From Stegostoma tigrinum (lineage: Eukaryota), in the NCBI RefSeq assembly GCF_030684315.1, contig NC_081391.1, positions 14,237,342 through 14,301,341 on the forward strand: a DNA stretch of 64,000 nt. The letters run 5' to 3'. The stretch's first letter is position 1. Every line of letters begins with the position of its first letter. A program made the position numbers and the translations under genes. Of the stretch, positions 1,195 to 62,538 are shown piece after piece. The notes beneath the pieces were generated by a model. The model was not told the DNA's origin, made no database searches, and saw nothing but the letters and a program-made list of their open reading frames with translations.

Positions 1195-1871
1195 AAGCCA
1201 GAGAGGGATGAGTGGGGTAACAGCCTGCAGGCAATGCAGGTTGCCCTGGATCTGGAGAAGAATGTGAACCAGAGTTTGCTGGATCTACACCAACTCTCCA
1301 CAGCGCACACTGACCCTCATGTAAGCTTCACCTCCTCATCACTGCTACCCCCTCAGGGCAACACTTCATTGGTCTGTGGATTGGGAATTCACTGCTGTAA
1401 CACTACCTTTGTCCAGATATGACATTGTCACAGCATATTCACTCCGGGTACAGTGTCACACCTGCTCAGCAATGAGTGAAATGGGGAATTTGGGTTATAA
1501 TCTTGTGCGAGTGCTGAAGTGATATTGGCCACTGAATTCTCATTCAGGATCACTCGAGTTGAAGTCATGTTTTCTCTGGCACAAATTCTCCAGCTTTTGC
1601 CTACACTTTCAGGACTGTCTGGTGTTAGTTATGGCTGAGTCTGTTTTTCAGTGGGAATTGTACAATTGTCCTGGATAGTGTTAATGTATCCAGTTGTCAT
1701 ATTCCTCTGTTGCAGCTGTGTGACTTCCTGGAGACCCACTATTTGGATGAGGAGGTGGAGATCATCAAGCAACTTGGGGACTACATCACCAACCTGAAGC
1801 GCCTGGGAGCCCCTGAGAATGGGATGGGAGAGTACCTGTTTGACAGGCTCTCGCTGGAGGACAGCAGTTAG
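1195..1871 (+). CDS. Ferritin subunit, copy F1 (partial: exons 3-4 only; exons 1-2 lie upstream of the window)
   Basis: Exon 3 1195-1320 (tcag|AAG...CAT|gtaagc, [42 protein letters not shown]). Exon 4 1716-1871 (tgcag|CTG...[54 protein letters not shown]). AATAAA at 1999-2004. Confidence 0.93.
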
Positions 1872-2320
1872 TGTGGCCTGGAGTACTGTCTGCTTGGTCT
1901 GAATGCATTCCCCACTTCACCCTGGGCAATCTGTCTCCTTCCAGGGAGAAGGGGCTTGTTGCAAAGTATGTAATGGCTGTACCAGCTGAATAGGAATGAA
2001 TAAAATGTGTTGATCTTGCCTATTGTCCATCATACAGATTACTGAATACTTTGGGAGCCATCTCTTGAGCTTGAAGCCTGTTATCTTTAATTTGACAATT
2101 GAACTTAAACAGTTCACTGGATTTTTTACCATCCCCACATACTGGGCAGGAACTAGATGGTGTTCCTTTCTGTCATTCCTTTTCAAGGTATTCCCCTTCA
2201 AATAGAATGAGGTTGGGGGTTTGCCAAAGGTGGGATGGAAGATCTTCTGGAGGTCAATTATACCCCTCTGGATACAGTGGGTTCAATAGTATTTCAAACA
2301 ACATATCTGGCAAAGATCTG

Positions 2321-2763
2321 AGGCTCCATCCACAGGGGGATCCAAAGTAACGATGCTGAGAAGAGTGTGTACTGGCCAGGGCAGGCTTTCTTTGTGACAC
2401 CAAGTTCCCAGATTGTACGAGTGGGTATCTGGCTTTACTGTTGTGAGAAGGTAGGGGAATTGTGATATTCATGTCCAATTGCATTTCCCTTAGTCACTTC
2501 TCAGCCATTCTAGACAATAGGTTATTGTCTGAAGTGACAGTCCTCACATGGAGAGTCTGTTTTGTGATTTTTCTGGTGGCTGGGGCAGTAGATAACACTC
2601 CAAAGGAAGGTTACACATCAGGTCCTGACTTCACTCCCACTCCAGGAACCTATGAAACAGAAGATCCCAGATGTCAGGTATATCTTTCACCCTTCGGCCC
2701 TGCCCTAACCAGTACACACTCTCCTCAATCTCGTTACTTTGGGTTCCACAATGGCTGGAGCCT
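2321..2763. repeat. Inverted repeat pair of about 65 bp with a spacer of about 310 bp (MITE-like)
   Basis: 2321-2385 is the degenerate reverse complement of 2699-2763 (CCTGCCCT..CCAGTACACACTCT.CTCA...TCGTTACTTTGG). Confidence 0.7.
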
Positions 2764-3739
2764 TGTGATGTTGTCTGAGCTCATAACAGAGCCAGTGAGG
2801 GTTTGTTGGGGTGGGAGCAAGGTGATAGGTGGGTGGATGGAAACTGTGACCTCCCCCCTGGCTCCCTTGTAACACCAAACTGCATTTGGTCACAGTGACC
2901 TCCTCCATCTGAGTAAGGCATAATCTTTGTCCGGGGGCTGTGATTTCAATGCCCACTGAGACTCGGTGCCAGTACACACTGGGGGTGATCTTTTAGCCAG
3001 AGGCACGCCAAATTCCTCATCTTGAGGCTCTCATTTCACTGTCTGCCCTTAGGCCACGGCTCGCTGTAACAAGCCGTCACTTGTACTGAAACGTCACTTT
3101 CCGTCTTACCAGGCCAGAGCTGTGAAGAATCATCCCAAACATTCACCGTAGCCCTCTTCCCAGTGAGTCAGCTCAAAATCTCCTCCATGGCATGGGCTTA
3201 TAGGGCAGGGTCTGCCTTCCACCCAAAGCAAGCGAATAGTGACCTGGGAATAACCCAGCAACGCTCATGGCTAAACGCTGCCATTGGATTGACTCTTGCC
3301 GCTCAAGCCAGCATTGAGTGCACTCAGCTGCTCCCTTGGTTCCTCTGAGCTTCCCACACGGTGAGGGTTGCTCTTGATGCAGGTTGTCCTCACCTAATCA
3401 CATTGAAGGAGTAGTGTGACTGGGAGAGGAGACCTGGAGATGCTGACTTTCCTGTACGGCTGCTTGCTTTATCTTTTTTTTTTGACGTGTCGGAGATCGG
3501 CGGTTAGGGAGTGGGTAATTAGAGACGTCCTGGGGATTGTTTCAGGGAGTTTTCTCACTGCAGCCTTTGTGAAGTTTGGTGGGGTGAGGCCATCCACCCC
3601 TTAGCATATTCGTTCCACCACCTAAATTGTTTTATTTTTGGGATATTTAAGTCTTTGCGATAGTAAACCTGAAGTGTGGGAAGGCCTCATTAGGCACTTT
3701 AAATCTGCATTGACTCTGAACAGCACCCTGTTCAGGCTC

Positions 3740-4305
3740 ACCACATTTCCCACAGCTAATTTACCATGGTTTCCCCCCGTCACTATTGGCAATTTAGCAC
3801 GGCAAATACGCCTAATTTACATGTTGCCCGACTGTGGTAGGAGACTGCAGCACCTGAAAGATGTCGATACAGACACGAGGAGAATGTACAAACTCCACAC
3901 AGACCATTTCCCCAAGGCTCGAATATAACTCGGGCCCCTGGTGCTATGAGGTAACAGTGCTAACCGCTGAGGCCCCGTCACCCCCTAAAGTACCAAACAG
4001 AGGAGGAGGCTGTTGTATTGCATAGTCAGAGCCATCCATCATGGAAATAGACTCTTCAGCACAACATGTCCTTGCAGACCAGGTTTCCACAAATTGTGTC
4101 GTGCCATTTCCCTTTATTTGGCCCAAATCCCTCTAAACCGTTCCATCCCATATACGTGTCCAAATGTCTTGTAATGGTACCCAAACCTACCGTTTCCCTT
4201 GGCAGCTCGTTCCATACACGCACCACCTCCTGTGTCAAAACGTTGTCCCTCATGTCCCTTTTAAAACTTGCCCCTATGCCCTCTAGTTTTGGACTCCCCT
4301 ACCCT
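3740..4305 (-). mobile_element. Spacer module: HE1-like SINE (about 3740-3985) plus CR1 3'-end fragment (about 4020-4305)
   Basis: The minus strand reads GCCTCAGCGGTTAGCACTGTTACCTCA (SINE head). ORF 4056-4253 (VVRVWNELPRETV...RHLDTYM) matches the CR1 ORF2 C-terminus. Confidence 0.7.
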
Positions 4306-5580
4306 GTCCCAGCAAGCGTTTTATATACAGTCAATCTTGAGTGTGCCAATGGCAAGGCTACATTTAGTGCTCAGCAACTGTTGCACGTCAGGAGGTGGTG
4401 ATGAGCTGGTTATTACAGTCCACCTGGTGTAGCAGAGCCCGGAATGATGCTGCTGCTGCTGAGGAGGGGCTTCTGGGATGTTCATTCACAAACAGGGATA
4501 GTGTTCCAAGTCAGGATGGTGACAGATTTACATGGAGCTGCTTGAGTGTCGTTGAGGCTGTCTTGAGCCAGAACAATGTAAAGTCATCCATCACACTTCC
4601 TGACTTCAGTCTTGTTGATGGTGGACAGGCTTTTGAAAGTCAGGAGTTGAGTGATTCACAACAGAATTCCCAGCCTCTTCCCACATTCTGAGCTGTTTGT
4701 TCTACAGAGTGCAATGTAAACAGGACCAGAACCTCCTGTTTAGAAACACGCTGCAGTTAAGCGCTTGTTGTCCTCCGAGCAGTTAAAAGCTGAACACAGA
4801 AATAGAAATATTGAATGTGCGATATATTTCCAGCACCTGATACCTCAGCAGTTTAGCTGGGAAATTCAGCCCATTTCTGAAGAAGGGTCCCAACCCAAAA
4901 AGTCAGCCTTCCTGATCCTCTGAAGCTGCCCAGCCTGCTGTGTTACTCCAGCTCCACGCTTTCTTATCTCTGACTCCAGCATTGACAGTTCTTACTATCT
5001 CTGAGGGAGTTAAGTGCTCGTCATTCTTGAACTGACTAAAAACTGAACACCGAGATAAAATGCTGAACATGGAATATATTTCTAGCAGCTGTCACATGGG
5101 CTATTTGGGGATAGACCCTGAGGCCTACTCCCGCACAGCACATTTTCTAATTTGATTTTCAAACTGGACTTACTACGATCCAAAGTCAACGAGATCCTGG
5201 CAGATTCTGAATGGATCCATAGCCTGTAGGTACCTGTATTAAATGACCCAAAAGCACATGAATTCTGTTGCTGCACACCAATACGTAAATGTTTACTGTC
5301 CACAAAATCTTGCCACTTTTCAATATACTCCAACACCGTCGTTCAAAAGCTACAAAGACAAATTCATCAGAGTAACAAACCGACAGAATTCAGCAAATCT
5401 GTGATGAGCATGTCTTCATACATAACCTCAGATACAGAAGTTTCAGAGTATGTTTTTTGTCATTTTCAGGGAGATGTCCTTCCAGAATTTGCACTTGTGC
5501 GGAGGTCAAAGGTCATTCAGCAATTCCATCATCGACCAGTTGTCAATTCTGATCGGTTTCTGGATCCAATACCCATCCTG

Positions 5581-5690
5581 CACTGATTGGACGTGCCAAC
5601 TGATCAACTGATGAACAAGAGTGATTGGCCATCACTGATGATGTCATATCCTGCTCAATAAAATGAGGGCTTGCAACTGAGGTATAAGTA
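5581..5690 (+). promoter_or_regulatory. Putative core promoter of F2
   Basis: Inverted CCAAT boxes (ATTGG at 5586 and 5624), a CRE-like TGATGTCA, and TATAAG at 5683, about 105 nt before the ATG. The block is conserved upstream of every copy. Confidence 0.65.
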
Positions 5691-5787
5691 GTGTCTCCAC
5701 GAGACTGATGGTTTAGGTGTAGTTGGTTTTCTTTCTAAGTTTGTTCTTTGATTGTAAGAAAAAGGAAAGCCCTTTTCTCCTCACAAA

Positions 5788-8700
5788 ATGGCCTCCCAGA
5801 TCAGTCAGAACTATCACCAGGATTGTGAAGCTGCTGTCAACAAGCAGATTAATGTGGAGCTCACTGCCTCCTATCTCTATCAGTCTTTGGTGAGTGTTGT
5901 GTTTATGAGGTTAAAATTCAATCTATTATTCTGAAGTGAGCTATTTCCCTTGTTTCTAACTAACTTGATGCCCTTGTAGATTGTGTTTCATATCTCTTAC
6001 CTATTGAACACATCAGGAGGAATGTGATGTTATCATATCAGTGGGCTATGATCCTGATGTACAGTCATGGTGGACCCTGTCAGTCTTCAATGATCTCTGG
6101 AGGGAGAAGTGTTTTGTTTTTGACTTAGTTCAAAATTCCCTGATAAGGTTATGCCTGGCAGTAATTGTCACTCCCTCACTAGGATTATCAAAAAGTTCAT
6201 CTAATTTCTGAAGGAACTGGAATAACCATTGGCTAGTTACTGGCTTCTGTTTTTAATTTCTTGCTTTCTGTTTATTTAGTGATGCATGTCATTGAACAAC
6301 ATGCTGACTTGGTATAGTAGTAAGGCATTATGGTAGCACTTTCCAATTAATCAAATCTGATCTGACACAGCCTTCAGGGTTTGGGTGTGACTATTAGCAG
6401 CTCAAATAGGCCTTGTTGGGGGCCTACTGGGCTTTGTGATCATTATTGAGATGGGTGTGGCCCTTCCCTTCACACTTGACATGAAGTTCATCTGCTGTGG
6501 TGTGTGAAGTGAGACGCTGGTGCTCCTGGAATGTGCTGAAGGTATTGCCTCAGTGACAGTGATGAAATGGATTGTTCCCAGACCATCTATCCTGGCCCTG
6601 AAACACACTGGCCCCTCAGACCAGGTGGCAGTGTGCCTGTGCCCTTCTAAGGGATAGACTGTGTTTGGAAGGTGTGTGTTTGAAGTAACCTTGGTGACTG
6701 CTGCAGGGGACCTGGTAGATAATGGACCCTGAAAGGAGGTGGTGAATGCAGTCCCCATGAAGTGGGCTGCTCAGTCTTGGATGGTGTCTGCTTCTTGCAT
6801 GTTGTAGCTCCCCTTCTACTGACAAATGGGGAATATTCATCTCTCTCTGGGCTTGTGCCTATTGGAAGGAAGCTGCCTCGATATAAGGATGGAGTCAGTA
6901 TAACCTCCATTTGGGAGGTGGGAACAGCTTTTACTGGGGAACCACTTGGGGTTTAATCACTGGCCAGTGTCCCAGCACAACAGGGAATTATGTACCAATC
7001 AATAAATCCCCACTATTCTGTCTTCCACAACTTGGAACTACCCAATTAAACCATACTTTTTTTTGCCTCACTTTGTATTTGAGGGTTGAAGTAGCTTTTC
7101 ACATCAGGATTCCTTGCTTATAGCAGCACTCATGCATCAGCTTCTGAACAAACATCTAATAGATGACTCACTTCTACTTCAACTGAAGCTGTAGCCCTCC
7201 AATGTTGAATTGTGAATGTCAGTTTTAGACGTGAGTGATTATGGGTGGGGAAAATTACAGCATTTTGCATGTTCAACTTAGCTAAATGAAGGTTTCCAGC
7301 AGTGTGTTTACTGGTGACATTATCCATAGAACAACAGTTGATCTAGAGATCACATTGTCTGTCTCCAACATTTGACTTTTCTTCAGTTTGTTCTTACAAT
7401 TTGTTTTATCAGTGTGATGCTTGTTTGCGAGCTTCTGGATGTGAGTGCACTCAATAAACAGGTGTGTAATAGCCTTCTGCGGCAATGATCCAAAGGCTGT
7501 TACTGGGCAGGCTTTCCTCATCAGAATCTTGGTGCCACTTTCTCCTCCATGCTGCAGACAGCATGTCCTGTAGCACTAAAATATATGGTACATCTAATGC
7601 CATTAATCTTGAGGTTGCAGAACTTGCTTCCCCCTAGTTCGACTGTTAGAGTAGTGCTCAACATCAGTATTGAGAAACCAAGGTCGGGAGATGGATGAAC
7701 ACAGCAGGCCAAACAGGAAATCTGACACTGGGCTAACATATGTATGCCACCTTAGCCCCAAAGGAGAAATGCGGTGCCTTGCAGCTGCCACCCTGAGTCC
7801 ATTCTGCATACCAGCTCCTGGCACAAGGTTAAAAACTTAGTCCATCACTAGTTTCATTCAATCCTGATGAGTGTTCAACAGAGGAAACATGAATTCAATT
7901 TTTCCCTCTCAATGCTGTGCCAGACCCCTTGAGCATTGCATTAGGTATCTTAAACCAAAACACATGGTATGCACATCCTCCCTGGAGGAAGCTGGGTTTG
8001 TTCAGATTGAGCCAGTTAAAGGATCATCTGGCTAATTGGACAACACTAGGTTCATGACCACAGTCATGTACCAGAACATAACAGCTCGTGGCATTCTAGA
8101 GCAAACTGACAATTCTCAACCGGTCATCAATTTCTGAGATCTACAATTGGCCCCAGTGGTCCCTTTAATGAGATTTGAAATGTTGTCTCTTCCAGATGTC
8201 CTATTTTGACCGGGATGACGTTGCCCTCCCCCATTTCTCGCGGTTCTTCAAAGATCAGTCCCAGCAGAAGCGGGAACATGCAGAGAAGCTGCTGAAATTC
8301 CAGAATCAGCGTGGAGGCAGAGTCCTCCTCCAGGATGTGAAGGTTGGAGTTTGGTTTGGGTGAGGGTGTGTGGTTACAGGTGAAAAATGGCAGCTCTCAT
8401 GGTGAGGCTTCAAGTCAGTGACGAGGACTTCACGTCCTGATGGGAAGTGACAAATATCTTGTTCTGTTTGGGTCCCCTGTGTCCTGACTCTGAATACAAC
8501 AAATCACAGAAACAAGCCCTCTGCCCACCATGTCTATGCTGACACACCAAATGACACTTTGCTGCACTTGGTCCACAGACTACTCTGCCCTGGCATGAAG
8601 TACTTGGCTAGATGTTGCTGGAGTGGCTGTCTCTTCCATATTTCTACCATCCTCTGGTCGGGGTGGGAGCAGGGGTGAGGGAGGACACTTCCTCTAACCT

Positions 8701-10001
8701 GTTGATTCCTCAAACCTGTGCCCTCTGGTATTGGTGCCTGCTATGGTGAAGACCTCTGTCTTTCCATATTCCAATTGCCTCAGCCTCACCACCTCCAAGG
8801 AAAATCGCAGCTTCTGGATCCTGTCTTCAATGGATTTTCAGTCTTGAGGCAAAATCCTAGTATTCCTCACCTGCGGCCCCTCCAGTGCCATCCTGTCCCT
8901 CTGATTTTCGGTTCTGGTCACCACCCTGCATTCCATCCTTGGCCTGGCTCACGTTGCAAAGCTTGGTACAAGACTGAGCTCTATATTGAGCCCCAACTGA
9001 AGGGGACGAGCATCATGTCAGCCACCTTCACCAGCCTGTCTACCTTCACTGAGCCTTGAGCTATCTATGGTCTGGATGTTGTTATCTTAGTTCCTTTTAT
9101 TCTAAAAGCTTTGCTGGCCCTTCAATGAACTAAGTTGCAGTGATGTTTCTCATCCTGCTCATGAGGAGGAGGACATGGCCTCGCGGTATTATTGATGAAC
9201 TGCCAGTCATCGGTCTGAATGTCCTGTGGCCATGCTGCAGGAATGCTGTTGCTGAAGCTTAACTGTCCTTCTTTTCCCTCCTCCAGAAGCCAGACAGGGA
9301 TGAGTGGGGTAACAGCCTGCAGGCAATGCAGGTTGCCCTGAATCTGGAGAAGAATGTGAACCAGAGTTTGCTGGATCTACACCAACTCGCCACAGCCCAG
9401 ACTGACCCTCATGTAAGCTTCACCTCCTCCTCATTCTCATCACTGCGACACCCTCAGGGCAACACGTCATTGGTTGGTCTTTGTGTGGTTTTGAAATTCA
9501 CTGCTGTAACACTGTCTGGCTGACATTGGGCCTGAAGTGATCATGCTGAGGATCTGTTCAGCAGTTGTTCAAATGGGAATTTGGATCATTATCTGGAAGG
9601 AGCGTTGAACTGATACTTGCCACTGAATTCTCATTTAGTATCATTGTCCATCACAATCCACCTCCACTCCATTTCACAAACAGCAAGATGGAGCAGCTGA
9701 AATCCTCTTGTCCTCACTGGCACAAATTCTCCAGGTGCTGGCTTGATTTTTCAAGGCTGTTGAGAGCGGGTATGGTGAAATGTTTTGCAGTGGAAATTCT
9801 GAAGTTGTTTTTAAGTGATCACAGTTTCTCTTTCTTCCATTGCAGCTGTGTGACTTCCTGGAGACTCACTATTTGGATGAGGAGGTGGAGATCATCAAGC
9901 AACTTGGGGACTACATCACCAACCTGAAGCGCCTGGGAGCCCCTGAGAATGGGATGGGAGAGTACCTGTTTGACAGGCTCTCCCTGGAGGACAGCAGTTA
10001 G
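5788..10001 (+). CDS. Ferritin subunit, copy F2 (intact, 176 aa, 4 exons)
   Basis: Exons 5788-5889, 8196-8342, 9287-9412 and 9846-10001, all GT-AG, 531 nt. [65 protein letters not shown].../KPDRDEWG...[18 protein letters not shown]... aligns to vertebrate ferritin with the standard exon structure. AATAAA at 10128-10133. Confidence 0.96.
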
Positions 10002-10504
10002 TGTGGCCTGGAGAACTGTCTGCTTGGTCTGAATGCATTCCCCACTTCACCCTGGGCAATCTGTCTCCTTTCAGGGAGAAGGGGCTTGTCGCAAAGAATG
10101 TAATGGCTGTACCAGCTGAATGGAATGAATAAAATGATGCATTGATCTTGCTTATTGTCCCTCATTCAGATTATTAAATATTTTGGGAGATGTCACTTGA
10201 GCTTTAAGTCTGTTTATCTTTCTCTAATTTGGCTGATCCAATTAGTAAATGGACTCAGCAAAACTTCTAGGTCTTACCCCAGCCCCTGAATGTTGGAAAG
10301 TAGCAAGATGGAGTTCCTTGTTGTGGTCCCAATGAAATTCAAGATATTCTCCTCAAATAGGTTAAGTTGGGGGTTTGTGAATTGTGGGGTGGCACTTCTT
10401 CTGGAGGACAACTGGCACATTTCTGGCTACGGGCCATTCGGATCATTAAAATCTGCATTGACACTGTGAACAGCATCATGTTCAGATCTTCCCCCCCCTG
10501 CCCC

Positions 10505-12737: not shown

Positions 12738-12845
12738 CACTGATTGGACGTGGCAGCTGATCAACTGATTAACAAGAGTGATTGGCCATCACTGATGATG
12801 TCATTTCCTGCTTCATAAAATGATGGTCTGCATTGGGGTATAAAT
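12738..12845 (+). promoter_or_regulatory. Putative core promoter of F3
   Basis: Two ATTGG, TGATGTCATTTCCTG (CRE-like plus ETS-like), CATAAAA, and TATAAAT at 12839. Confidence 0.65.
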
Positions 12846-12941: not shown

Positions 12942-15900
12942 ATGGCCTCCCAGATCAGTCAGAACTATCACCAGGATTGTGAAGCTGCTGTCAACAAGCA
13001 GATTAATGTGGAGCTCACTGCCTCCTATCTCTATCAGTCTTTGGTGAGTGCTGTCCCTGTGGTGTTGGAGTTAAATCTGTTATGGTTAAGTCAACAGTTT
13101 TTCTTGTTTGTAACTAACTTGGAACTACTGTAGATCGTGTTTTATATTTCTCTCCTATTTAAACACCAGGAGAAATCTAATGCTATTAGAAAAATGTGGT
13201 ATGACACTGATATACAGTAACTGGGCCCCTATTGACTTTCAGTGACTGCCTGGTGGGTGAAGTGCTTTGTGAAATACATCTTGTAATTCACTGTCAGGAT
13301 TGTGACTGGCAGTAACTGTCACTATCTCTGAAGATTATGATAACTCAACAGTACTTTAGAAAGAAGATAACTGAGCGTGGGGCTGGATAAACACAACAGG
13401 CCAAGCAGCATCTCAGGAGCATAAAAGCTGATGTTTTGTGCCTGGACCCTTCGTGCTGCTTGTCCTGCTGTGTTCATCCTGCCTGATGCTTTGTTTTCTT
13501 GGATTCTCCAGCTTTTGCTGTTCCCATTATTTGAGTCTTTTAGAAAGAAGCTGGGATAACCATTAGTTCATTAGCCTCCTGTTCTAATGTGTCCTGGTGT
13601 ATCTGTTTTGTCTTGTGATGCATCTGAACAAACCAGGGTTATATTTCCTGCTGGAGAAAGGTGTCATAGTGACTGTCCAGAATAACCAAATCTGATTGGC
13701 CTCAGCCTTCAGGGTTGGGCTGTGACTCCCTGCCTGTTCAAATAGGTTTCCAGTGAGGCCTGTTTGGCTTTTTGCTCTCCATGAGGTGGGTGTGACCCAT
13801 TCTCTCTGAACCTACAGACAATTGATCTGCTGTAGTGTGCTATATTGGAGACTCCTGGGTCTACAGGAATGTGCTGAGCTTGTTGAGCCAGTGAAGCAAG
13901 GCTTTTCCCATACCACCTCTCCTGGTCTGAAACAAGCCTGCCCCTTTCACCAGCTGGTGGTGTGCCTGTGCCCTTCCAAGGGGGAGAATATGTTTGGAAG
14001 GTGAGAGCTGCAGCGGACCTAGTAGATAATGGACCCTGAAAGGAGGTGGTGAATGCAGTCCCCATGAAGTGGGCTGCTCTGTCCTGGATGGTGTCTGCTT
14101 CTTGCATGTTGTAGCTCCACTTCTCCAGACACATGGAGAATATTCATCACTCACTGGGCTTGTGCCGGTTGGAAGGAAGTAGTTTCCAATGACATGAGGA
14201 TCAAGTCCCTGTAAGCCCACTTTGTGAGATAGGAACAGCTTTTCCTGCTGAACTAGGTGGGTTTTAATCACTGGCCAGTGTGCCTACTCAACAAGAATTG
14301 TGCTAATATAAAATCCTCACTGTTCTTCACATGTCACATCATGTAACAACCCAGTTATATCACACTGTAATCCACCAAGGCAAATCGTCAAGAGCAACTT
14401 CTCACCAGGTTTCTTCCCTCCAGAACAATCCTCATCTGCTTTATGAAGCAGCCAATCAAGTGTTCACTGTTATTCCAGCTTGTTATTCAAGTGTGAGACT
14501 CAGTTTAGAATGAGTGCAAGGGGTGGGTCAGGTCTAGAATTTGACCTGTACAAATGGGTCAAATCAGGTTTTCCAGCTTCATGTTAACGAGTGACATGAT
14601 CTGCAGAACAATAGTTCATCTAAAGGTCTCTCTGACCTTGCTTCAGTTTGTTTTAAGCAGTGATGTTTGTTTGCAAGCTTCGGAATGTGAGTGTGCTACA
14701 TAAATGGGTGTAGTAGCCTATTGCAGTAACAACCCAATGGCTGTCACTGGGCAGGATTTCCTTTGCAGAATCTTGGTTCCACTTTTGCTCTTTCTCCTCC
14801 TCCCATAATGCCAACAGCATCTCTTGCAGAGCTATCATCCAATCCGATTGATCTCCAGGTTGTAGAAGACTCGCTCCCTCCTGGCTATATTATTACAGCA
14901 GTGCCCAGTGTCTGTATGTTACTTTAGCCCCAAAGGAGAAATGTCGGGTCGTGCAGCTGCCCCACCCTGAGACCATCCTGCGCACCAACTCCTGGCCATT
15001 CCTCCAATTCTGTGACATCCATCAGTGGAAACATGAATTCAGCTTTTCTCAGCATACGCTGTGCCAGACCACCCCCACCCTGAGCAATTTGATAGTGCTT
15101 TCAAACCCAAACAGGGTATCTGCAGGAAGCTGGGTTTGTCTAGATTGACCCAGTGAACAGATCTGCCGTCAAATTGAACCACACTAGGTTCACAGGCCAA
15201 TTTTGTGTAGCCACACTTTGACAGCTGGCCGAACCTTCAGTTTGCTTTTGAAGGATAAACCAGGTCTGCAGTTCTGAACTATATTCAGGCCCAGTGGTAC
15301 ATTTTAATGGGCTTTAACTTGTTCCCTCTCCCTTCCAGATGTCCTACTTTGACCGGGATGATGTTGCCCTCCCTCGTTTCTCCCAGTTCTTCAAAGATCA
15401 GTCCCAGCAGAAGCGGGAACATGCAGAGAAGCTGCTGAAATTCCAGAATCAGCGTGGAGGCAGTGTCCTCCTCCAAGATGTGAAGGTTGGAGTTGGGAAG
15501 AGATGGTTGGGTAGGGTGAGGTTTCAAGTCAATGACCAGCATGTCTCACACTGAAAAGTGAGACATGCTACCATTTTGGCTTCCCAGTTTCTCCTGAAAT
15601 ACCAGAAATCCCACAAACAAGCCCTTTGGCCCACCATGTCTATGCTGACCCAAGAAACACCCAACCACATTAATCCCATCAACCTGCACTTGGACTGCAG
15701 CCCACAATGAGGTGGCATTAAGTAGTTGTCCAGATGTTGCTGGAGTAGCTGCCTTCAATCGGGTGTTGCATTTCACAAACCTACTTGTGTTTTTTAGGAG
15801 GAGTTGGAGGTGGTGGGTTTCTCCAACCTGGAGCCTCACTTGCACCCCCTCCAGTGTTTATCCTGTCCCTGTGATTGTGGTTCTGGTCACCACACTGGCC

Positions 15901-47147: not shown

Positions 47148-48106
47148 AATGTCCTAAGAGAGTGATGTTTTAGGTGTAGTTGGTTTTCTTTCCAAGTTTG
47201 TTGTTTTGTTGTGCTGGGTTAGGAAAGCTGTTTGTGTCACAAGTTGGCCTCTCAGATCAGTCAGAACTATCACCAGGATTGTGAAGCTGCTGTCAACAAG
47301 CAGATTAATGTGGAGCTCACTGCCTCCTATCTCTATCAGTCTTTGGTGAGTGCTGTCCCTGTGGTGTTGGAGTTAAATCTGTTCTGGTTAAGTCAACAGT
47401 TTTTCTTGTTTGTAACTAACTTGGAACTACTGTAGATAGTGTTTTATATTTCCCTCCTATTTAAACACCAGGAGAAATCTAATGCTATTAGAAAAATGTG
47501 GTATGACACTGATATACAGTAACTGGGCCCCTATTGACTTTCAGTGACTGTCTGGTGGGTGAAGTGCTTTGAGAAATACATCTTGTAATTCACTGTCAGG
47601 ATTGTGACTGGCAGTAACTGTCACTATCTCTGAAGATTATCATAACTTGACAGTATGTTAGAAAGAAGATAACTGAGCGTGGGGCTGGATGACCGCAACA
47701 GGCCAAGCAGCATCTCAGGAGCATAAAAGCTGATGTTTTGTGCCTGGACCCTTCGTGCTGCTTGGCCTGCTGTGTTCATCCTGCCTGATGCTTTGTTTTC
47801 TTGGATTCTCCAGCTTTTGCTGTTCCCATTATTTGAGTCTTTTGGAAAGAAGCTGGGATAACCATTAGTTCATTAGCCTCCTGTTCTAATCTGTCCTGGT
47901 GTATCTGTTTTGTCTTGTGATGGATGTAAGCAAACCAGGGTTATATTTCCTGTTGGAGAAAGGTGTCATAGTGACTGTCCAGAATAACCAAATCTGATTT
48001 GCCTCAGCCTTCAGGGTTGGGCTGTGACTCCCTGCCTGTTAAAATAGGTTTCCAGTGAGGCCTGTTTTGGCTTTTTGCTCTCCTCCATGAGGTGGGTGTG
48101 ACCCAT

Positions 48107-48110
48107 TCTT

Positions 48111-48182
<72 letters not shown>
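48107..48182. repeat. (CT)n microsatellite in intron 1 of F7
   Basis: About 34 perfect CT units preceded by TCTT repeats. Confidence 0.97.
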
Positions 48183-48184
<2 letters not shown>

Positions 48185-50763: not shown

Positions 50764-51020
50764 AGGGATGGCACAGTGGCTCAGTGATCAGCACTGCTGC
50801 CTCACTGCCAGGGACCCAGGTTTGGTTCTGGCCTTGGGTGAATGATTGGAATTCACATTTCTCCCTGCATGGGTTTCCTCCCACAGCCCAATGATGTGCT
50901 GGTTAGGAGGATAGGTCATGGGAAGTGAGGGGTTGCAGAATTGGGTGGGAGTCTTTTCAGGGGGTATTGATGGTCTCAATGGGCTGAATGGCCTATTCCC
51001 ATGCTGCAGGGATTCTGTTT
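50764..51020 (+). mobile_element. HE1-like SINE in intron 2 of F7
   Basis: Paralogous to 16396-16650. Confidence 0.7.
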
Positions 51021-53247
51021 CTGAAGCTTACCTGTCCTTCTCTGCATCCTCAGAAGCCAGAGAAGGATGAGTGGAGTAACAGCCTGCAGGCAATGCAGTT
51101 TGCCCTGGATCTGGAGAAGAATGTGAACCAGAGTTTGCTGGATCTACACCAACTCGCCACAGCCCAGACTGACCCCCATGTAAGCTTCACCTCCTCCTCA
51201 TTCTCATCACTGCTGGACCCTCAGGGCAACACTTCATTGGTTGACTTTGTGGTTTGGAAATTCACTGCTGAAACAGTTTTTGTCTGGATATGACATTGCT
51301 ATCACTGTATTCACTCCAGGTACAATGTCACAACTGCTCAGCCATGAGTGACATGGGGAATTTGGGTTATAATCTAGTGGGAGTGCTGAAGTGATATTGG
51401 CCACTGAATTCCCATTCGGGGCCACTCGAGTTGAAATACTTGTGTCCTCACTGGCACAAATTCTCCAGCTATCGGCTGCACTTTGAGGACTGTCTGGAGT
51501 TAGTCATGGCTGAGTCTCTTGCAGTGGGAATTCTGAAATTGTCCTGTGCCATGTTAATGCACAAGTTGTCATAATCCTCTGTTGCAGCTGTGTGACTTCC
51601 TGGAGAATCACTGTTTGGATGAGGAGGTGAGGATCATCAAGCAACTTGGGGACTACATCACCAACCTGAAGCGCCTGGGAGCCCCTGAGAATGGGATGGG
51701 AGAGTACCTGTTTGACAGGCTCTCCCTGGAGGACAGCAGTTAGTGTGGCCTGGAGTACTGTCTGTTTGGTCTGAATGCATTCCCCACTTCACCCTGGACA
51801 ACCTGTCTCCTTCCAGGGAGAAGGGACTTGGAGCAAAGAATGTAATGGTTGTACCAGCTGAATGGGAATGAATAAAATGATGTGTTGATCTTGCTTATTG
51901 CCCATCATTCAGAGCCCTGTATAATTTTGGTAGTTATTCTGAGAGATTGAAGCATTTTAATTTTTCTACTGTTTGACTGGTTGATCAAATTACTAATTGG
52001 GCTAAACATTTCCTTGTTTCGACACTCAATCCAATCCGTACTCTGTCAGACAAGGATACCAAGAGCAACTCGCTCTGACCTATCAATCAATGATGTTCCT
52101 CCAAACGGAACTTGAGGATATTGGGTTTGTCGGGTGCAACTTGCTCTTCACTGTCTTGTTTTTTTTCAAAAAAAACTACACTTCTGGATGCGATCCATAC
52201 TATGGAAGGAAAGAAACTCCCTTTTTGGGAAAGGGAGTTCTGCTGCTCTGCCGACGGGAAGAGGAGACACCCAGTCTCGGGATTCTCTGACAGTCCTCTT
52301 TCCACATTCACCTTGTCTGTCCAAGAGCTTTCGCTCACCCCTCCCCTACTAAATGGTACTAGCACCGTTAATATTCACCTGCAGATGTGGCTTCGGGTTA
52401 TTGGGATGAGCTAAGGTTCAAACCAACCTTGGGACATGTACTATTAGTTGCGGGGTTTTTCCTTCCCCGCTCACCCCCCTGACCCTCCTCTGATCTTACT
52501 GTTAGCAATTGGGCATGTTGGCCAGCTCATCCCTCCTTCGTCTCAGATAAATATGCTGGTCCTACTGGTCGCTTTGATTCACGACCCACTGCAATCAGGG
52601 AGTCAATCCCCCCGTGCGGGCATGTTTCCCATAAACAACCCCAAGTTGTCCTGATGTGGCTTGTTCATTCCTCTTTGCCTGTTTATCGGATTCTCTCCAA
52701 CAAACAGCCACTTCAGAATCAGCACGTTGTCTGATTGCCACCTACAGCAGGAGAGGAGTGGCCTGGGAGTAACACAGCAACACTCATGGTTACAGGCTGC
52801 TGTTTGATTGGCTCTTGCTGCTACAGCCAGCGTTGAGCGCACTCAGCTGCTCCCTATGTTCCTCTGAGCTTCCCCTGTGCTGCAGGTTGCCTTGACTCAG
52901 TGATGGTGAACGAGCAGTGATTTCTGTTCAACTTGGGAATGGTGTGACTGAGGGAGGAAACCTGGAGCTGCATACCATCCTGTACGGCTGTTTACTTTAT
53001 CGTTCGAGCTGTCACACATTCTGGGGATTACCTCTGACTTTTGCAGCTCCTGTGCAATGTAGCCTTTGGAGAGGACATGGCTCTTATGTGACTGAACATA
53101 TCTGTTACGTGACAGAAATCCTTTTAATTTGGAGCAATCTTAATTCTTGTCATTAAGTCCCTGTTGTCCAGGAAGCGGCCATTTGGCCAGTGCAGCGTCG
53201 ACACTCTACACCCATCCTGTTCAGACCCACTCCATTCCCTTAACACT

Positions 53248-55133: not shown

Positions 55134-58100
55134 ATGGCCTCCCAGATTAGTCAGAATTACCACCAGGATTGTGAAGCTGCTGTCAACAAGCAGATCAATG
55201 TGGAGCTCACTGCCTCCTATCTCTATCAGTCTTTGGTGAGTGTTGCCTCTCAGGGGTTTAACATTTAAACTATCATGTCAAAGTGACTGGTTTCCCTTGT
55301 TTCTAACTAACCTGATATTCTTGTACACTGACTGTAATTGTTCTTAACTGAACTGCAATTCAGGATGAATGTGATGTTTCCATAGCAATGGGCTATGGGA
55401 CTGATGCCCCACTTGGCCTGCAGTGACACATTGAGGTGAAGTGTTCTTGGTGTTCTCAGACTCCCTTAGACTGTTGTGACTGGCAGTAACTGTTACTCCC
55501 TCATTCGGGTTGTTGAAAGTGGAGGTTTGTTAGGCCTGTTCCTGGGGTTGCATGATCTAGTGTATTGGTGCTACTGGAATGTCTGGAGATTTTTCACTCT
55601 ATAACAGTGAAGAAATGGAGATTCTGCTGTCATGCTGGCCATATTTGAAACTGGCCTCTTTCGTCAGTTGGTGCTGTGCCTGTGACCACCTGAAAAATAG
55701 TCTCATTTGTAGGTGAGAGAGATAATAGCAAGTGCAGATGCAGGAGAATCTGTTTATAACAAGGTGTCGAGCGAGAATAACAGCAGGCCAAGTGGCACCT
55801 TAAGAGCAGGAAAGCTCCTGTTTCAGGACTAAAGGGTCTCGCCCCGAAACATGAGCTTTCCTGCACTGAAGATGCCACTTGGCTGGCTGTGTTGTTCCAG
55901 CTCTAAACCTTGTTATCTTGGATTTATGTATGCAAGGTGTTATTCTTTTTTTCAGTGAGGGGAAAACATCATGCCTTGCGATTGCCTCATGTTTGTTTTT
56001 TATTCTCCAGTAGGATTGACTGTCGAACAGTACAGGCCCTTCAGCCCTCGCCGTTGTGCTGACCTGTCATACCGATCTGAAGCCCATCTAAGCTACACTA
56101 TTCCATATGTGTCCATGTGCTCATCTAATGATGACTTAAATGTACCTCAAGTTGGCGAATCTACAACCGTTGCAGGCAAAGCATTCCATTCCCTTCCTAC
56201 TCTGAGTTAAGAAACTACCTTTTGACATCTGTCCTATATCTTCCAACCCTCAGTTTAAAGGTAGGCCCCCTCATGCTTGCAGTCACCATCCTAGGAAGAA
56301 GCCTTTCCCTATCTAACCCTCTGAATATTTTGTCTCAATTATGTCTCCTCTCAACGTTCATCTCTCTCTGTTGAAAACAGCCTCAAGCCCCTCTGCCTTT
56401 CCTTGTAAGATGTTCCCTCCATACCAGGCAACATCCTAGTAAATCTCCTCTGCACCCTTTCCAAAGCTTCCACATCCTCCTTATAATGCAGTGACCAGAA
56501 CTGTACGCAATACTCAGTGTGGCCACACCAGAGTTTTGTACAGCTGCAGCATAACCTCTTGGTTCCAGAAAACAATCCCTCAATTAATAAAAGCCGAAAC
56601 ACAATGCCTGAACAGCCCTGTCAACCTGGGTGGCAACTTTCAAGGACCTGTGTACATGGACACCGAGATCTCTTTGCTCATCGACACCACCAAGAATCTT
56701 ACCATTAGCCCAGTACTTTGCCTTCTGGTTACTCCAACAAAGTGCATCACCTTACACTTGGCTGCATTAAACTCCATTTGCCACCTCTCAGCCCAACTCT
56801 GCAGCTTATCTCTGTCTCTCTGTAACCTACAGCATCCTTCGTCATTATCCGCAACTCCACCTTAGTGTCGTCTGCAAATTTATTAACCCATCCTTCTACG
56901 CCCTCATCCAGGGCATTTATAAAAATGACAAACAGCAGTGGACCCAGAACCGACCCTTGCGGTCCATGACTAGTAACTGGTCTCCAGGATGAACACTTTG
57001 CATCAAGTACCACCCTCTGACTTCTTTCAGCAAGCCAATTTTCAATCCAAACTGCTATATCTACCACAATCCCATTCCTCTACACTTTGTACAATAGTCT
57101 ATTGTGGGGAATGTTATCCAAGGCTTTGCTGAAATCCATATACACATCAACCGGTTTACTCTCATCTACTTGTTTGGTCACCTTCTCAAAGATTGAGGGT
57201 CTGAGTGGCCTAATCCTGTTTGTTCTGTTAACAGTTTTTGTTTCTTTGGTTTTTTAACTTTCTTTAAAAATGAACCAGTGTCTTCAGGATTGCCTCTAAT
57301 TATTTTGAACTGAGTAGAAGCTGTCACTTTGTCACAAGCTCCAACTTCATGTTCAGCATGGAACCAAGTTTAAATCTACATCTGCATGACTGACTGACCA
57401 ACACTCGCTTCTCTCCCGTCCCCATATACCGGAGGTTTAACACCTTTATTGAATAGTCAGCCTGATCGGGAAGGCTCGCTTCTTCTCTCCACTGAGACTG
57501 AACTGTGGCCAGTGATGTGTTTAATGGGCTTTTGGCTGTTTTCTGTTCCAGATGTCCTACTTTGACCAGGACGATGTTGCCCTCCCCCATTTCTCCCAGT
57601 TCTTCAAACATCAGTCCCAGGAGAAGCAGGAACATGCAGAGAAGCTGCTGAAATTCCAGAATCAGCGTGGAGGCCGGGTCCTCCTCCAGGATGTGAAGGT
57701 TAGAGTTGGCAATATATGGCTGCTCTTGTCATGTGGCTTCAAGTCATCAGTGGCAGGATGTTTGCCTCCTCTCAGGAGAGTGAAGAGTTCTTTCAGTTTG
57801 GTTTCTAAGTTTCATCTCCTCGAAGTCATGCAGTGTATGGGAAAAGCCACTTGCCCCCCCATAAACAGAACTACACTCATCTGACTTGCTTGCACTTGGT
57901 CCACAGATGACTATACCCTGGCATGAAGTACATGTCCAGATACTGCTGGAGTTGCTATCTCCACTGCCATCTCTTCCCCTCCCCACCCAGACCACGGTTC
58001 AACTCGTATCTTGATCAGCCTCCTTTTTGGGAAAGTGGTTTCCTATAATTGCCCCTCTATAACCTGCTTACTCCTCAAACCTGTGCTCTCTGGTCTGTCT

Positions 58101-59477
58101 TCCTCATGGCCCACATTCTCCCCATCTCCTGTCCCAACTTCCCTCTGCTAACTGCCTCAGCCTGTTTGTCCTCCAGGGAAAACCCCAGCCAATCCAACAC
58201 CTCAATGGATTTTCCACCTGAGGGACCTTCCTGCTCTTCTGATAGTGGTCCTGTTCACAACACCATTGCTTCTTTGACGTGGCCAAAATTTGAGTGGGAG
58301 AAGAAATGGCTGCCCTTGGGGTGTGGCTTACATTCATCAGTAACAGGATGATGACATCCTGAAGGCAGGCGCAGGAAGTGAAGTGCTTCTGTCTTTCACC
58401 CATCATTCTAACTACATCTTGTGCAAGAACTATACTGTCTAAATTCTGCGTGATAATCTCAAACACGCTCCTTTGTTCCTGGCTTCGGTGAAATCAAACG
58501 TACACTCGGGTCGAAAGTTCAAGGTCTGCTGCTAATAACGTGGCTGGACTCTTTTAGTTTTAAAGCAGTTCTGTTTGTACCAAGTACAATCAGACAAGAT
58601 CTGTGTGTCTGTGTGCTCCTACCATTAGACATGACGACAATGATTGCTTTCCCTTTACATGAAGGGTCAAGGTTCAATTGTTGGACAAGGGTGCTGCATG
58701 TAATGGGGAACAGTGAGGTTTGTCCTGGAGCTTAGCTGTCCTTCTTTCCATCCTCAGAAGCCAGAGAGGGATGAGTGGAGTAACAGCCTGCAGGCAATGC
58801 AGGTTGCCCTGGATCTGGAGAAGAATGTGAACCAGAGTTTGCTGGATCTACACCAACTCGCCACTGCCCAGACTGACCCTCATGTAAGCTTCACCTCCTC
58901 CTCATTGTCATCACTGCTACACCCTCAGGGCAACACTTCATTGATTGGTCTTTGTGGTTTGGAAATTCACTGCTGTAACACTTTGCCTGGATGACATTGG
59001 ACCTGTAGTGATCATGCTGAGGATCTGTGTTCACAGTTGTTAAAATGAGAATTTGGATCCTTATCTGGAAGGAGTGTTGAACTGATACTGGCCACTGAAT
59101 TCTCGTTTAGTATCATTGTCCGTCACAATCCACCTCCAATCCATTTCACAAACAGCAAGACGGAGCAGCTGAAATCCTATTGTCCTCACTGCCAAATATT
59201 CTCCAGGTGCTGGCTTGATTTTTTTCAGGGCTGTTGAGAGTGGGTATGGTGAAATGTTTTGCAGTGGGAATTCTGAATTTGTCTTTAATAGTGATCACAA
59301 TTTCTCATTCTGCTGTTGCAGCTGTGTGACTTCCTGGAGACCCACGATTTGGATGAGGAGGTGGAGATCATCAAGCAACTTGGGGACGACATCACCAACC
59401 TGAAGCGCCTGGGAGCCCCTGAGAATGGGATGGGAGAGTACCTGTTTGACAGGCTCTCCCTGGAGGACAGCAGTTAG
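55134..59477 (+). CDS. Ferritin subunit, copy F8 (open frame, 176 aa, two Tyr>Asp changes)
   Basis: Exons 55134-55235, 57552-57698, 58758-58883 and 59322-59477, with canonical splice sites. Exon 4 reads [33 protein letters not shown] at 59604-59609. Confidence 0.9.
56010..57190 (-). mobile_element. CR1-clade LINE 3' fragment (RT) in intron 1 of F8, same insertion as in F5
   Basis: ORFs 56747-57067 ([19 protein letters not shown]) and 56351-56602 (EYCVQFWS...[15 protein letters not shown]). Junctions match F5. Confidence 0.9.
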
Positions 59478-61048: not shown

Positions 61049-61249
61049 TAACACGGTGGAGCTGGATGAACACAGCAGGCCAGGAAGCATCAGAGGATCA
61101 GGAAAAGCTGATGATTCAGATAGGGACCCTTCTTCAGTAAAGGAAGATTCAGCACATTTCTGAAGAAGCTTCCTGACCCGAAACATCAGCTTTCCTGCTC
61201 CTCTGATGCTGCCTGGCCTGCTGTGTGCATCCAGTTCCACATTGTGTTA
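61049..61249. repeat. About 200-bp palindromic element, paralog of 11546-11746
   Basis: Nearly identical to 11546-11746. Confidence 0.8.
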
Positions 61250-62240
61250 TCTCTGACTCCAGCAACAGCAGTTCTTACTATCCGTGAGGAAGTTCAGCGC
61301 TGGTCATCCTCGAAGTGATTAAAAACTGAACACGGAGATAAAAGTGCTGAACGTGCAGTATAATTCTCACAGCTATCTCCTGGTCCATTTACGTATAGAG
61401 CCTGAGGCCTGTTGTGTGTCTGAGACACTCAGCACCTTTCGCATTTTGATTTTTCAATCTGGCCTACTCAGATCCACAGTCGACGAGATCTCGGCAGATT
61501 CAGAATGGATCCACGATGTACATCAGTTGTCTGTACTAAATGGTCCGAAAGCACATGGATTCTGTTGCTGTAGCTCAATAGGAAAATGTTTACTGTTGAC
61601 AAAATCTGGCCATTTCTCACTGGGCTCCAACACTGTTGTTCAAAAGGTACAAAGACTAATCCCTCAGAGTAACAAACTGACAGAATTCAGCAAATCTGTG
61701 ATGAGTGTTTATTAAGAAATAGCCTCAGATACAAAAGTGAAGTTTTAGAGTGTATTTTATTCTCATTTTCAGGGAGATGTACTTCCAGAATTTGCACTTG
61801 TGCAGGAGGTCAATCAGCAATTCCATCATCGACCAGTTGTCAATTCTGTGCTTCCTCAGACCCAAGTCCAAACAGATCACAGTAGATACAGAATGAATCC
61901 ACAAAGTAGATTGTTTTTCTGTATTAAATGGTCCAAAAGCATATGGGCTCCGTTGATGCACAGCAATGGGAAAATTTTACTGTTAACAAAACCTCGTCAT
62001 TTTTCAATCGGCTACAAATCTGTGATTCAAAACCGACAGAATTCAGCAAATCTGTGATGAGCGTGTCTTAACACATAACCTCAGATACAAAGGTAAAGGT
62101 TCAGAGTCTATTTTATTCTCATTTTCAGGGAGATGTACTTCCAGAATTTGTACTTATGCTGGAGGTCAAAGGTCATTCCGCAATTCCATCATCGACCAGT
62201 TGTCAATTCTGATCATTTTCTGGATCCAATTCCCATCCTG

Positions 62241-62348
62241 CACTGATTGGACGTGGCAGCTGATCAACTGATTAACAAGAGTGATTGGCCATCACTGATG
62301 ATGTCATTTCCTGCTTCATAAAATGATGGTCTGCATTGGGGTATAAAT
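62241..62348 (+). promoter_or_regulatory. Putative core promoter of F9
   Basis: Same block, with TATAAAT at 62342. Confidence 0.62.
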
Positions 62349-62436
62349 AATGTCCTAAGAGAGTGATGTTTTAGGTGTAGTTGGTTTTCTTTCCAAGTTT
62401 GTTGTGCTGGGTTAGGAAAGCTGTTTGTGTCACAAG

Positions 62437-62538
62437 ATGGCCTCCCAGATCAGTCAGAACTATCACCAGGATTGTGAAGCTGCTGTCAACAAGCAGATTA
62501 ATGTGGAGCTCACTGCCTCCTATCTCTATCAGTCTTTG
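62437..62538 (+). CDS. Ferritin subunit, copy F9, exon 1 (gene continues beyond the window)
   Basis: ATG at 62437, [34 protein letters not shown], donor gtgagt at 62539. Intron 1 is nearly identical to that of F3. Confidence 0.92.

What the first reader, a model, noticed from the sequence alone, without database searches (positions are those of the whole stretch)
1195..62538. Large tandem expansion of intron-containing ferritin genes (at least 9 copies, running off both window ends)
Seen: nine same-strand four-exon ferritin units fill the window, and at least four have intact frames and core promoters. Established: most vertebrates have only a few intron-containing ferritin loci (H, L, M), and mammalian extra copies are mostly retrocopies. 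Inference: this is a lineage-specific, dosage-driven amplification, possibly for a specialised high-output role in oocyte or yolk, lens, immune tissue or secretion, rather than routine iron storage. I cannot tell from the window whether the cluster is already described.
Basis: partly seen in the sequence, partly recalled or inferred. Interest (0 to 1): 0.8.

Follow-up and report, generated by a model that had tools for sequence, protein, structure and literature searches.

The report
Shark ferritin array, catalytic glutamate lost
This is part of a huge, already reported cluster of ferritin genes in sharks, but the copies here belong to an old shark subgroup that has swapped a key iron-binding residue and lacks the usual iron-sensing RNA switch, much as the mammalian light chain lost its catalytic site.

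Summary
The array is real: seven complete four-exon ferritin genes plus two partial ones cut by the window ends, all on the + strand. Four have intact frames and splice sites; three are damaged (frameshift, lost donor, lost ATG). The proteins are closest to zebra shark (Stegostoma) ferritins (97%). The expansion is already described: Sahm 2024 (Greenland and white shark, at least 250 My old, ovary-expressed) and Yang 2026 (FTH1b, sharks generally). It is therefore shark-wide, not species-specific.

Not in the passages I read: every copy has Lys at the bridging ferroxidase glutamate (E62K) plus Q141E, both L-chain residues, and no IRE. These copies fall in a K62 clade (100/99) found in eight shark genera. 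It lies next to a ferroxidase-intact expanded clade that appears to share its chromosome. Exons, promoter and 3' UTR are about 94-98% identical while introns are down to 73-80%, which points to exon-limited gene conversion plus birth-and-death.

Best reading: a probably ovarian, iron-unregulated, catalytically dead partner subunit, parallel to the L chain. Activity, co-assembly and expression are untested.

The parts
1195..1871 (+). Copy C1, exons 3 (1195-1320) and 4 (1716-1871); exons 1-2 lie before the window
5788..10001 (+). Copy C2, intact: exons 5788-5889, 8196-8342, 9287-9412, 9846-10001; Q61, K62, E141 (H-chain numbering)
12942..17375 (+). Copy C3, intact: exons 12942-13043, 15339-15485, 16685-16810, 17220-17375; Q61, K62, Q140, E141
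23591..28344 (+). Copy C4, intact: exons 23591-23692, 25780-25926, 27630-27755, 28189-28344; K62, E141
31732..36073 (+). Copy C5, pseudogene: 1-nt deletion in exon 2 near 34185; exons 31732-31833, 34142-34287, 35355-35480, 35918-36073
38519..43208 (+). Copy C6, probable pseudogene: exon-1 donor CT instead of GT, weakened TATA, 9 private amino-acid changes; exons 38519-38620, 40971-41117, 42518-42643, 43053-43208
47244..51743 (+). Copy C7, probable pseudogene: start codon TTG; exons 47244-47345, 49708-49854, 51054-51179, 51588-51743
55134..59477 (+). Copy C8, intact frame (two private Tyr-to-Asp changes): exons 55134-55235, 57552-57698, 58758-58883, 59322-59477
62437..62538 (+). Copy C9, exon 1; the rest lies beyond the window
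8268..8270 (+). AAG (Lys) at ferroxidase position 62 in C2; the same codon at 15411, 25852, 41043, 49780, 57624 and in C5
9882..9884 (+). GAG (Glu) at position 141 in C2; the same in all 8 exon-4 copies
5530..5690 (+). Conserved core promoter of C2 (three CCAAT/ATTGG boxes, E-boxes, TATA at 5683); 94-98% alike in 20-nt bins across intron lineages, repeated before all 8 exon-1 copies
5691..5787 (+). Short 5' leader of C2 with no IRE; the most divergent exon-flanking part (58-80% between lineages)
10002..10160 (+). Conserved 3' UTR of C2 with AATAAA at +127; 92-99% alike between copies
18937..21434 (-). Decayed LINE insertion, unique to the C3-C4 spacer; RT fragment 19941-20438 (PF00078, E 7.6e-16)
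33396..33959 (-). LINE RT fragment in intron 1 of C5 (PF00078, E 5e-11); the C8 intron 1 is 96% alike

Best explanation
The window is a slice of the ancient shark ferritin gene cluster, most likely from the zebra shark or a close relative. It holds only members of a shark subfamily whose di-iron ferroxidase site is disabled (Lys62, here also Glu141) and whose mRNA has no IRE. SHOWN: gene anatomy, residues, absence of an IRE, one K62 clade across sharks, purifying selection on the intact copies, and exon-limited homogenisation. INFERRED: the subunit cannot oxidise Fe(II) fast; it is made in bulk in the ovary or oocyte regardless of iron level; it co-assembles with the neighbouring ferroxidase-intact subfamily into mixed 24-mer cages as a stabilising, activity-diluting partner, as the L chain does with H; this stocks iron or cage protein for yolky eggs. 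The array turns over by unequal crossing-over and pseudogenisation, while short gene-conversion tracts keep exons, promoter and 3' UTR alike.
For: Lys62 in 7 of 7 exon-2 copies and Glu141 in 8 of 8 exon-4 copies. Glu62 in 56 of 56 reference rows outside the two expanded shark clades. A review names Glu62 as a ligand of the site and says E62K+H65G (L-chain residues) abolishes activity (passage). Solved L chains read DEEV at 141, like these copies. With the trait columns removed, 11 K62 rows form one clade (100/99) that follows shark phylogeny from Heptranchias to Mustelus, Cetorhinus, Carcharodon and carpet sharks, outside the FTH1 clade; it is joined to the E62 expanded clade at 94/87, not starred. 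K62 and E62 representatives list the same longest-contig length in Stegostoma, C. punctatum, C. plagiosum, Hemiscyllium, Heptranchias, Carcharodon, Cetorhinus and Mustelus. No IRE: 0 Rfam hits at gathering, no IRE family among 9 hits at E<=10, and no CAGWG loop in 8 of 8 leaders. Private changes in intact copies are 9 synonymous to 7 non-synonymous against about 21% synonymous expected (P=0.002). Four-fold sites differ less than introns in 11 of 12 pairs with introns at least 19% apart. Identity drops from about 94-99% to 60-77% within 20 nt of five of six splice sites. Ovary-specific expression of the largest Greenland shark cluster, with mixed 'FTL' and 'FTH1' labels, is reported.
Against: No activity, assembly or expression data for these copies. 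The cited loss of activity is for the double mutant E62K+H65G, and His65, Glu27, Tyr34 and Glu107 are kept here. The L-type nucleation glutamates are only partly present (Asp/His57, Gln60, Glu/Gln61, Glu64), so the subunit may be a poor nucleator. No Greenland shark sequence was among the hits, so it is not shown that the ovary-expressed cluster contains K62 copies; Yang 2026 saw some FTH1b copies transcribed in fin and blood. No K62-clade protein appeared among the listed hits for Pristiophorus, Heterodontus, Scyliorhinus, rays or chimaera (top-120 lists only), so the subunit may be dispensable. 3 of 7 complete copies are broken. Intact and broken copies do not differ significantly in their change spectrum (Fisher P=0.21). 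Mammalian L was not in the tree. The pairwise tests are not independent.
Confidence: 0.55

Rival explanations
1. The K62 ferritins form cages on their own and serve a non-iron role in the germ line (bulk storage or structural protein, or a nuclear protectant), like the ferroxidase-dead mammalian FTHL17.
For: Both the catalytic bridge and part of the nucleation surface are lost. No IRE. The window is a pure block of K62 copies with their own promoter. FTHL17 is testis-expressed, has no ferroxidase activity and shows concerted evolution in dog (passages).
Against: The three-fold iron-entry residues His118, Cys130, Asp131 and Glu134 are kept in all four intact copies, and so are Glu27, His65 and Glu107. 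An intact sister family appears to lie on the same chromosome.
Confidence: 0.2
2. The K62 copies are mostly passengers. The array grows by recombination, gene conversion spreads and preserves exon sequence, and only the E62 copies matter.
For: 3 of 7 complete copies are broken. Exons are homogenised even in broken copies. The clade was not seen in several shark and ray genera.
Against: The clade has kept a full-length frame and Lys62 across hexanchiform, carcharhiniform, lamniform and orectolobiform sharks. There is an excess of synonymous private changes in intact copies (P=0.002). The promoter is conserved.
Confidence: 0.1
3. The subunits keep a slower or rearranged iron-oxidation site and are ordinary dosage-amplified ferritins for somatic iron buffering or ferroptosis control, as Yang et al. 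2026 propose for FTH1b.
For: Glu27, Tyr34, His65 and Glu107 are kept and Glu141 adds a carboxylate. Yang et al. report a conserved fold and some transcription in fin and blood.
Against: Lys replaces a ligand shared by both iron sites. No IRE. Sahm et al. report ovary-specific expression. Arg22(23), recalled as needed for NCOA4 binding, is Lys, Gln or Asn in the expanded shark clades.
Confidence: 0.12
4. The array is an assembly artefact (stacked haplotypes or false duplications).
For: Some blocks are 96-99% alike (9252-14520 vs 58725-64000 at 96.25%; about 1% difference over 1171 nt upstream of C3 and C9). Read depth was not checked.
Against: Most copy pairs differ by about 20% in introns; no exact repeat of 400 nt or more; private lesions; independent reports in other sharks.
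Confidence: 0.03

Closest known systems
Shark ferritin clusters of Sahm et al. 2024 (bioRxiv 10.1101/2024.09.09.611499) and the FTH1b expansion of Yang et al. 2026 (PMC13214024)
   Same: Large tandem arrays of full-length and truncated ferritin genes in sharks; ancient; Stegostoma tigrinum was among Yang's compared species.
   Different: The passages read label copies FTL/FTH1 or FTH1b and do not separate a K62 from an E62 subfamily. 'Ferroxidase' occurs 0 times in Yang's text and supplements. I did not search either paper for IRE or gene conversion; the ferritin passages do not mention them.
Mammalian ferritin L chain (FTL)
   Same: Lys62 and Glu141; four-exon gene; predicted lack of fast ferroxidase activity.
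   Different: Keeps Glu27 and His65; nucleation glutamates only partly present; no IRE; many tandem copies; scores below M and H chains over the whole length (no L chain in the best 60 of 277); probably independent origin.
Amphibian and teleost M chain
   Same: Best solved relative (frog M, 284 bits against at most 268 for H); same 176-aa length and register.
   Different: M chains keep Glu62 and Gln141, and the salmon ones have an IRE. Sharks have a separate M-like clade (P0105, P0176).
Mammalian FTHL17 / Fthl17 family
   Same: Germ-line, ferroxidase-inactive, multi-copy ferritin-like genes with concerted evolution (passages).
   Different: X-linked and H-derived, recalled as intronless, unstable protein, testis-expressed; the genes here have three introns and lie outside the FTH1 clade.

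Membership tests
Eukaryotic (animal) ferritin | Ferritin domain PF00210 over the chain | tested here: met
   Exon 2 of C4 scores 37.5 bits and the 97%-identical P0010 123.8 bits; cut-off 24.5
Eukaryotic (animal) ferritin | Four exons, three introns | tested here: met
   102/147/126/156 nt exons; same layout stated for salmon genes
Eukaryotic (animal) ferritin | 24-subunit cage assembly | not testable with these tools
   No structure model was obtained; needs recombinant protein
H chain (FTH1) | Complete ferroxidase centre E27, Y34, E62, H65, E107, Q141 | tested here: not met
   K62 in 7 of 7 and E141 in 8 of 8 copies
H chain (FTH1) | Grouping with FTH1 orthologues | tested here: not met
   FTH1 clade (99/96, with chimaera and skate H) excludes the window copies
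H chain (FTH1) | IRE in the 5' UTR | tested here: not met
   transcription start inferred from the TATA box, not mapped
M chain | Ferroxidase centre plus nucleation glutamates | tested here: not met
   K62; D/H57 and Q60
L chain (FTL) | Ferroxidase site disabled by Lys62, with Glu141 | tested here: met
   Sequence level only; E27 and H65 are kept, unlike L
L chain (FTL) | Inner-surface nucleation glutamates (57, 60, 61, 64; set partly recalled) | tested here: not met
   D/H57, Q60, E/Q61, E64
L chain (FTL) | Orthology to mammalian FTL | tested here: inconclusive
   No mammalian or frog L sequence was returned; tetrapod M/L-lineage rows all have E62 and group apart
L chain (FTL) | No ferroxidase activity; heteropolymer with H-type subunits | not testable with these tools
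   needs assay
Shark ferritin cluster (Sahm 2024; FTH1b of Yang 2026) | Tandem multi-copy ferritin genes on one shark chromosome | tested here: met
   9 units in 64 kb; 19 Stegostoma cluster representatives list one 26.87-Mb contig
Shark ferritin cluster (Sahm 2024; FTH1b of Yang 2026) | Same orthogroup and synteny as the published clusters | not testable with these tools
   No flanking genes in the window and no Somniosus sequences among the hits; a Carcharodon K62 member was found
Shark ferritin cluster (Sahm 2024; FTH1b of Yang 2026) | Ovary-specific expression | not testable with these tools
   No RNA-seq access
Ferritin retrocopies / FTHL17 | Intronless, H-derived (recalled) | tested here: not met
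   Three introns in every complete copy; outside the FTH1 clade

The most novel reading that the evidence does not exclude
Sharks evolved a second H/L-type ferritin system independently of mammals. Inside the ovary-expressed cluster, a catalytically dead K62 subunit split from an active E62 subunit before the squalomorph-galeomorph divergence. Both lost iron control by IRE and were amplified to dozens of copies each, so that copy ratio sets the cage composition loaded into eggs. Carpet sharks then added Q141E, a second L-chain residue. This would recast the 'ferroptosis and longevity' reading of the expansion as egg provisioning.
Probability: 0.4. Interest if true: 0.65.

Novelty: new variant of a known kind. 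Interest (0 to 1): 0.45.

Why it matters
The expansion itself is published, so the finding as stated adds only a species example. What may be new is the split of the cluster into a ferroxidase-intact and a Lys62, IRE-less subfamily kept across several shark orders. If confirmed, it is a natural repeat of the H/L division of labour. It gives a stepwise series (E62K, then Q141E) for testing how a ferroxidase site is retired, and it changes how the shark expansion should be read: counting copies as iron-oxidising ferritin, or as FTL and FTH1 by best hit, would mislead. The sharp exon-limited homogenisation also means that copy trees from coding sequence understate the age of the array.

Tried and rejected
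Haplotype or assembly artefact: rejected on intron divergence and lack of long exact repeats; read depth unchecked. Retrocopies: rejected, introns present. IRE: none by Rfam or pattern; six IRE-like patterns lie on the minus strand, none on the plus strand; leaders fold no better than shuffles (z from -0.9 to +1.7, 5 of 8 leaders tested). RNA-templated conversion as the cause of exon identity: considered because the drop is at splice sites. It is not favoured, since the untranscribed promoter and the first 80 nt of intron 3 are also alike while the 5' leader is not; not excluded. Selection on synonymous codons alone: not favoured, as 146 of 300 informative site pairs fail the four-gamete test and only 8 of 25 sites follow the intron tree, though recurrent mutation adds to this. 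Rfam matches (MIR6457 and others) are far below gathering scores and were taken as hairpin repeats. The bacterial promoter scan was uninformative for a eukaryote. The ESM Atlas gave only ordinary chordate ferritin clusters and had no model. No structure model was obtained, so a Lys62-Glu107 salt bridge (recalled for L chain) is unchecked. Cluster membership lists were not obtained, so exact gene counts and an exact match to an annotated genome are unchecked. A search with the platypus sequence did not return L chains. The first IQ-TREE run timed out and was replaced. A complex prediction was not run, since ferritin pairs would pass by likeness to solved cages. Literature: 10 searches found no paper on a Lys62 shark subfamily; subscription journals are mostly outside the library. 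The zebra shark genome preprint and the 2025 Greenland shark preprint do not contain the word ferritin. Supplements of bioRxiv preprints and Yang's Fig. 2C/3B images could not be seen and may bear on copy numbers and subfamilies.
Full report
1. Observation. Self-comparison shows the window is built of repeated units of about 7-10 kb; 92% of bases align to another copy. Exon searches give 8 copies of exon 1, 7 of exon 2, 8 of exon 3 and 8 of exon 4, all on the + strand. That makes nine units, seven of them complete. C2, C3, C4 and C8 have ATG, GT-AG sites and a 176-codon frame. C5 has a one-base deletion in exon 2, C6 lacks the exon-1 donor, and C7 starts with TTG. Each exon 1 has a TATA-like box about 100 nt upstream and three CCAAT/ATTGG boxes; each exon 4 has AATAAA at +127/128. 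No exact repeat reaches 400 nt and most introns differ by about 20%, so these are paralogues, not stacked haplotypes. Read depth was not available.

2. Source and prior description. An exon-2 profile search gave 540 hits of 760 candidates. The best are Stegostoma tigrinum ferritins, 19 of them listing one 26.87-Mb contig. The spliced C2 protein matches P0010 at 171 of 176 residues. The window is therefore from the zebra shark or a close relative (inference). Sahm et al. 2024 (passages) report 155 'FTL' and 179 'FTH1' copies in the Greenland shark, clusters syntenic with the white shark, at least 250 My old, the largest expressed specifically in ovary. Yang et al. 2026 (passages and supplement search) report raised FTH1b copy numbers in sharks generally, 59 in the Greenland shark, with S. 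tigrinum among the species compared; some copies were transcribed in fin and blood. The expansion is known.

3. What the copies encode. Window residue n equals H-chain residue n+3 and equals the salmon numbering, where the ferroxidase residues are Glu24, Glu58, Glu59, His62, Glu104 and Gln138 (passage). All 7 exon-2 copies have AAG (Lys) at H62, 3 of 7 also have Gln at H61, and all 8 exon-4 copies have Glu at H141. Glu27, Tyr34, His65, Glu107 and the three-fold channel residues are kept in the intact copies. A review states that Glu62 belongs to both iron sites and that E62K+H65G, the L-chain residues, abolish activity (passage). Solved L chains read DEEV at 141. Outside the two expanded shark clades, 56 of 56 reference rows have Glu62. 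Loss of fast ferroxidase activity is thus a strong inference, not a measurement, and the cited mutant is a double one. Nucleation glutamates are only partly present (D/H57, Q60, E/Q61, E64). Over the full length the closest solved chains are frog M (284 bits), then H; no L chain is in the best 60 of 277.

4. Distribution. Trees used named hits only (43 and 48 rows chosen from the lists; partial and fused models and unnamed hits left out), with the trait columns dropped. Eleven K62 rows form one clade (100/99) that follows shark phylogeny: Heptranchias, then Mustelus, Cetorhinus with Carcharodon, and carpet sharks. A Rhincodon fragment also has Lys62. Glu141 is confined to carpet sharks, so the changes were stepwise. 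One Heptranchias protein in the other clade has an independent Lys62. The sister group (94/87, not starred) is an expanded clade that mostly keeps Glu62 and includes a chimaera protein, so the split may predate sharks. FTH1 and a shark M-like clade lie apart. No K62-clade protein was listed for Pristiophorus, Heterodontus, Scyliorhinus, rays or chimaera, but lists stop at 120. No mammalian or frog L chain was returned, so independence from L rests on tetrapod M/L-lineage rows all having Glu62 and on the published statement that teleost M is orthologous to mammalian L.

5. Regulation. Rfam finds no IRE at gathering or at E<=10. No CAGWG loop lies between TATA and ATG in 8 of 8 copies, whereas all five salmon H and M genes have IREs. 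Translation is therefore probably not iron-gated; the transcription start is inferred. An E-box CAGCTG lies about 190 nt upstream in 5 of 8 promoters; its likeness to oocyte FIGLA sites is recalled and is a lead only.

6. Array evolution. Coding regions are 93.6-97.6% alike in all 21 pairs, while intron 1 ranges from 72.6 to 96.4%. Four-fold sites differ less than introns in 11 of 12 pairs whose introns are at least 19% apart (C2-C3: 3 of 67 against 549 of 2279). Five closer pairs show no deficit, and four pairs had only 24 alignable intron bases; pairs are not independent. Identity falls within 20 nt of five of six splice sites; the promoter, 3' UTR and first 80 nt of intron 3 stay high, and the 5' leader does not. 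146 of 300 informative site pairs are incompatible, and 8 of 25 sites follow the intron tree. C5 and C8 switch lineage at exon 3, and long duplicated blocks start near exon 3. This fits unequal crossing-over plus short conversion tracts in conserved islands, with birth-and-death of copies. Private changes in intact copies are 9 synonymous to 7 non-synonymous (P=0.002 against neutral), and 9 to 17 in broken ones (P=0.07); the two groups do not differ significantly (P=0.21).

7. Mechanism. Most likely (0.55): an IRE-less, catalytically dead subunit made in bulk in the ovary and co-assembled with active cluster subunits, working like an L chain without being shown to be one. Rivals: an iron-independent germ-line cage protein like FTHL17 (0.2; passages), a still-active somatic ferritin (0.12), passengers (0.1), artefact (0.03).

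8. Verdict. The Lys62 subfamily, the missing IRE and the exon-limited homogenisation were not found in ten library searches or in the passages read. All papers were seen as term-matched passages, plus the abstract for PMC4117605 and a supplement search for PMC13214024; none was read whole. Subscription papers, bioRxiv supplements and figures were not seen. New variant of a known kind; interest 0.45.

Noticed in passing
window 18937-21434 (-): Decayed LINE of about 2.5 kb with an RT fragment, inserted only in the C3-C4 spacer; it explains the longest spacing (10.6 kb).
   Followed up: partly
window 32354-32514 and 55756-55916: 161-nt self-complementary element in intron 1 of C5 and C8, probably a MITE; weak Rfam MIR6457 match far below gathering.
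   Followed up: no
window 2321-2763: 65-nt inverted repeats (2321-2385 and 2699-2763, 82% alike) flank a unique 313-nt core; looks like a small non-autonomous DNA transposon.
   Followed up: no
window 48107-48182 and 43762-43808: (TC)38 microsatellite in intron 1 of C7 and a poly-C tract after C6.
   Followed up: no
proteins P0002-P0005, P0007, P0008: NCBI models from Stegostoma and Chiloscyllium have exons 2-3 repeated (1-2-3-2-3-4). They are either units with internal duplications from unequal crossing-over or annotation joins of neighbouring partial copies.
   Followed up: no
window 5842-5844 (residue 19 of C2) and relatives: Arg22(23), recalled as needed for NCOA4 binding, is Lys (or Gln/Asn) in both expanded shark clades but Arg in H and M-like rows; this bears on the ferritinophagy hypothesis.
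   Followed up: partly
window 9413-9500 and equivalents: The first 80 nt or so of intron 3 stay 86-93% alike across lineages, unlike other intron ends; a conversion tract or an intronic element.
   Followed up: partly
proteins P0235, P0247, P0248, P0243, P0268: Some members of the E62 clade carry other site changes (Arg65, or Lys/Arg27), so ferroxidase decay may be recurrent in the cluster.
   Followed up: no
protein P0043: A 176-aa vertebrate-type ferritin is named as from Aeromonas veronii, probably host contamination.
   Followed up: no
window 59322-59477 (C8 exon 4): Two private Tyr-to-Asp changes (134, 148) in an otherwise intact copy may mark early decay.
   Followed up: no
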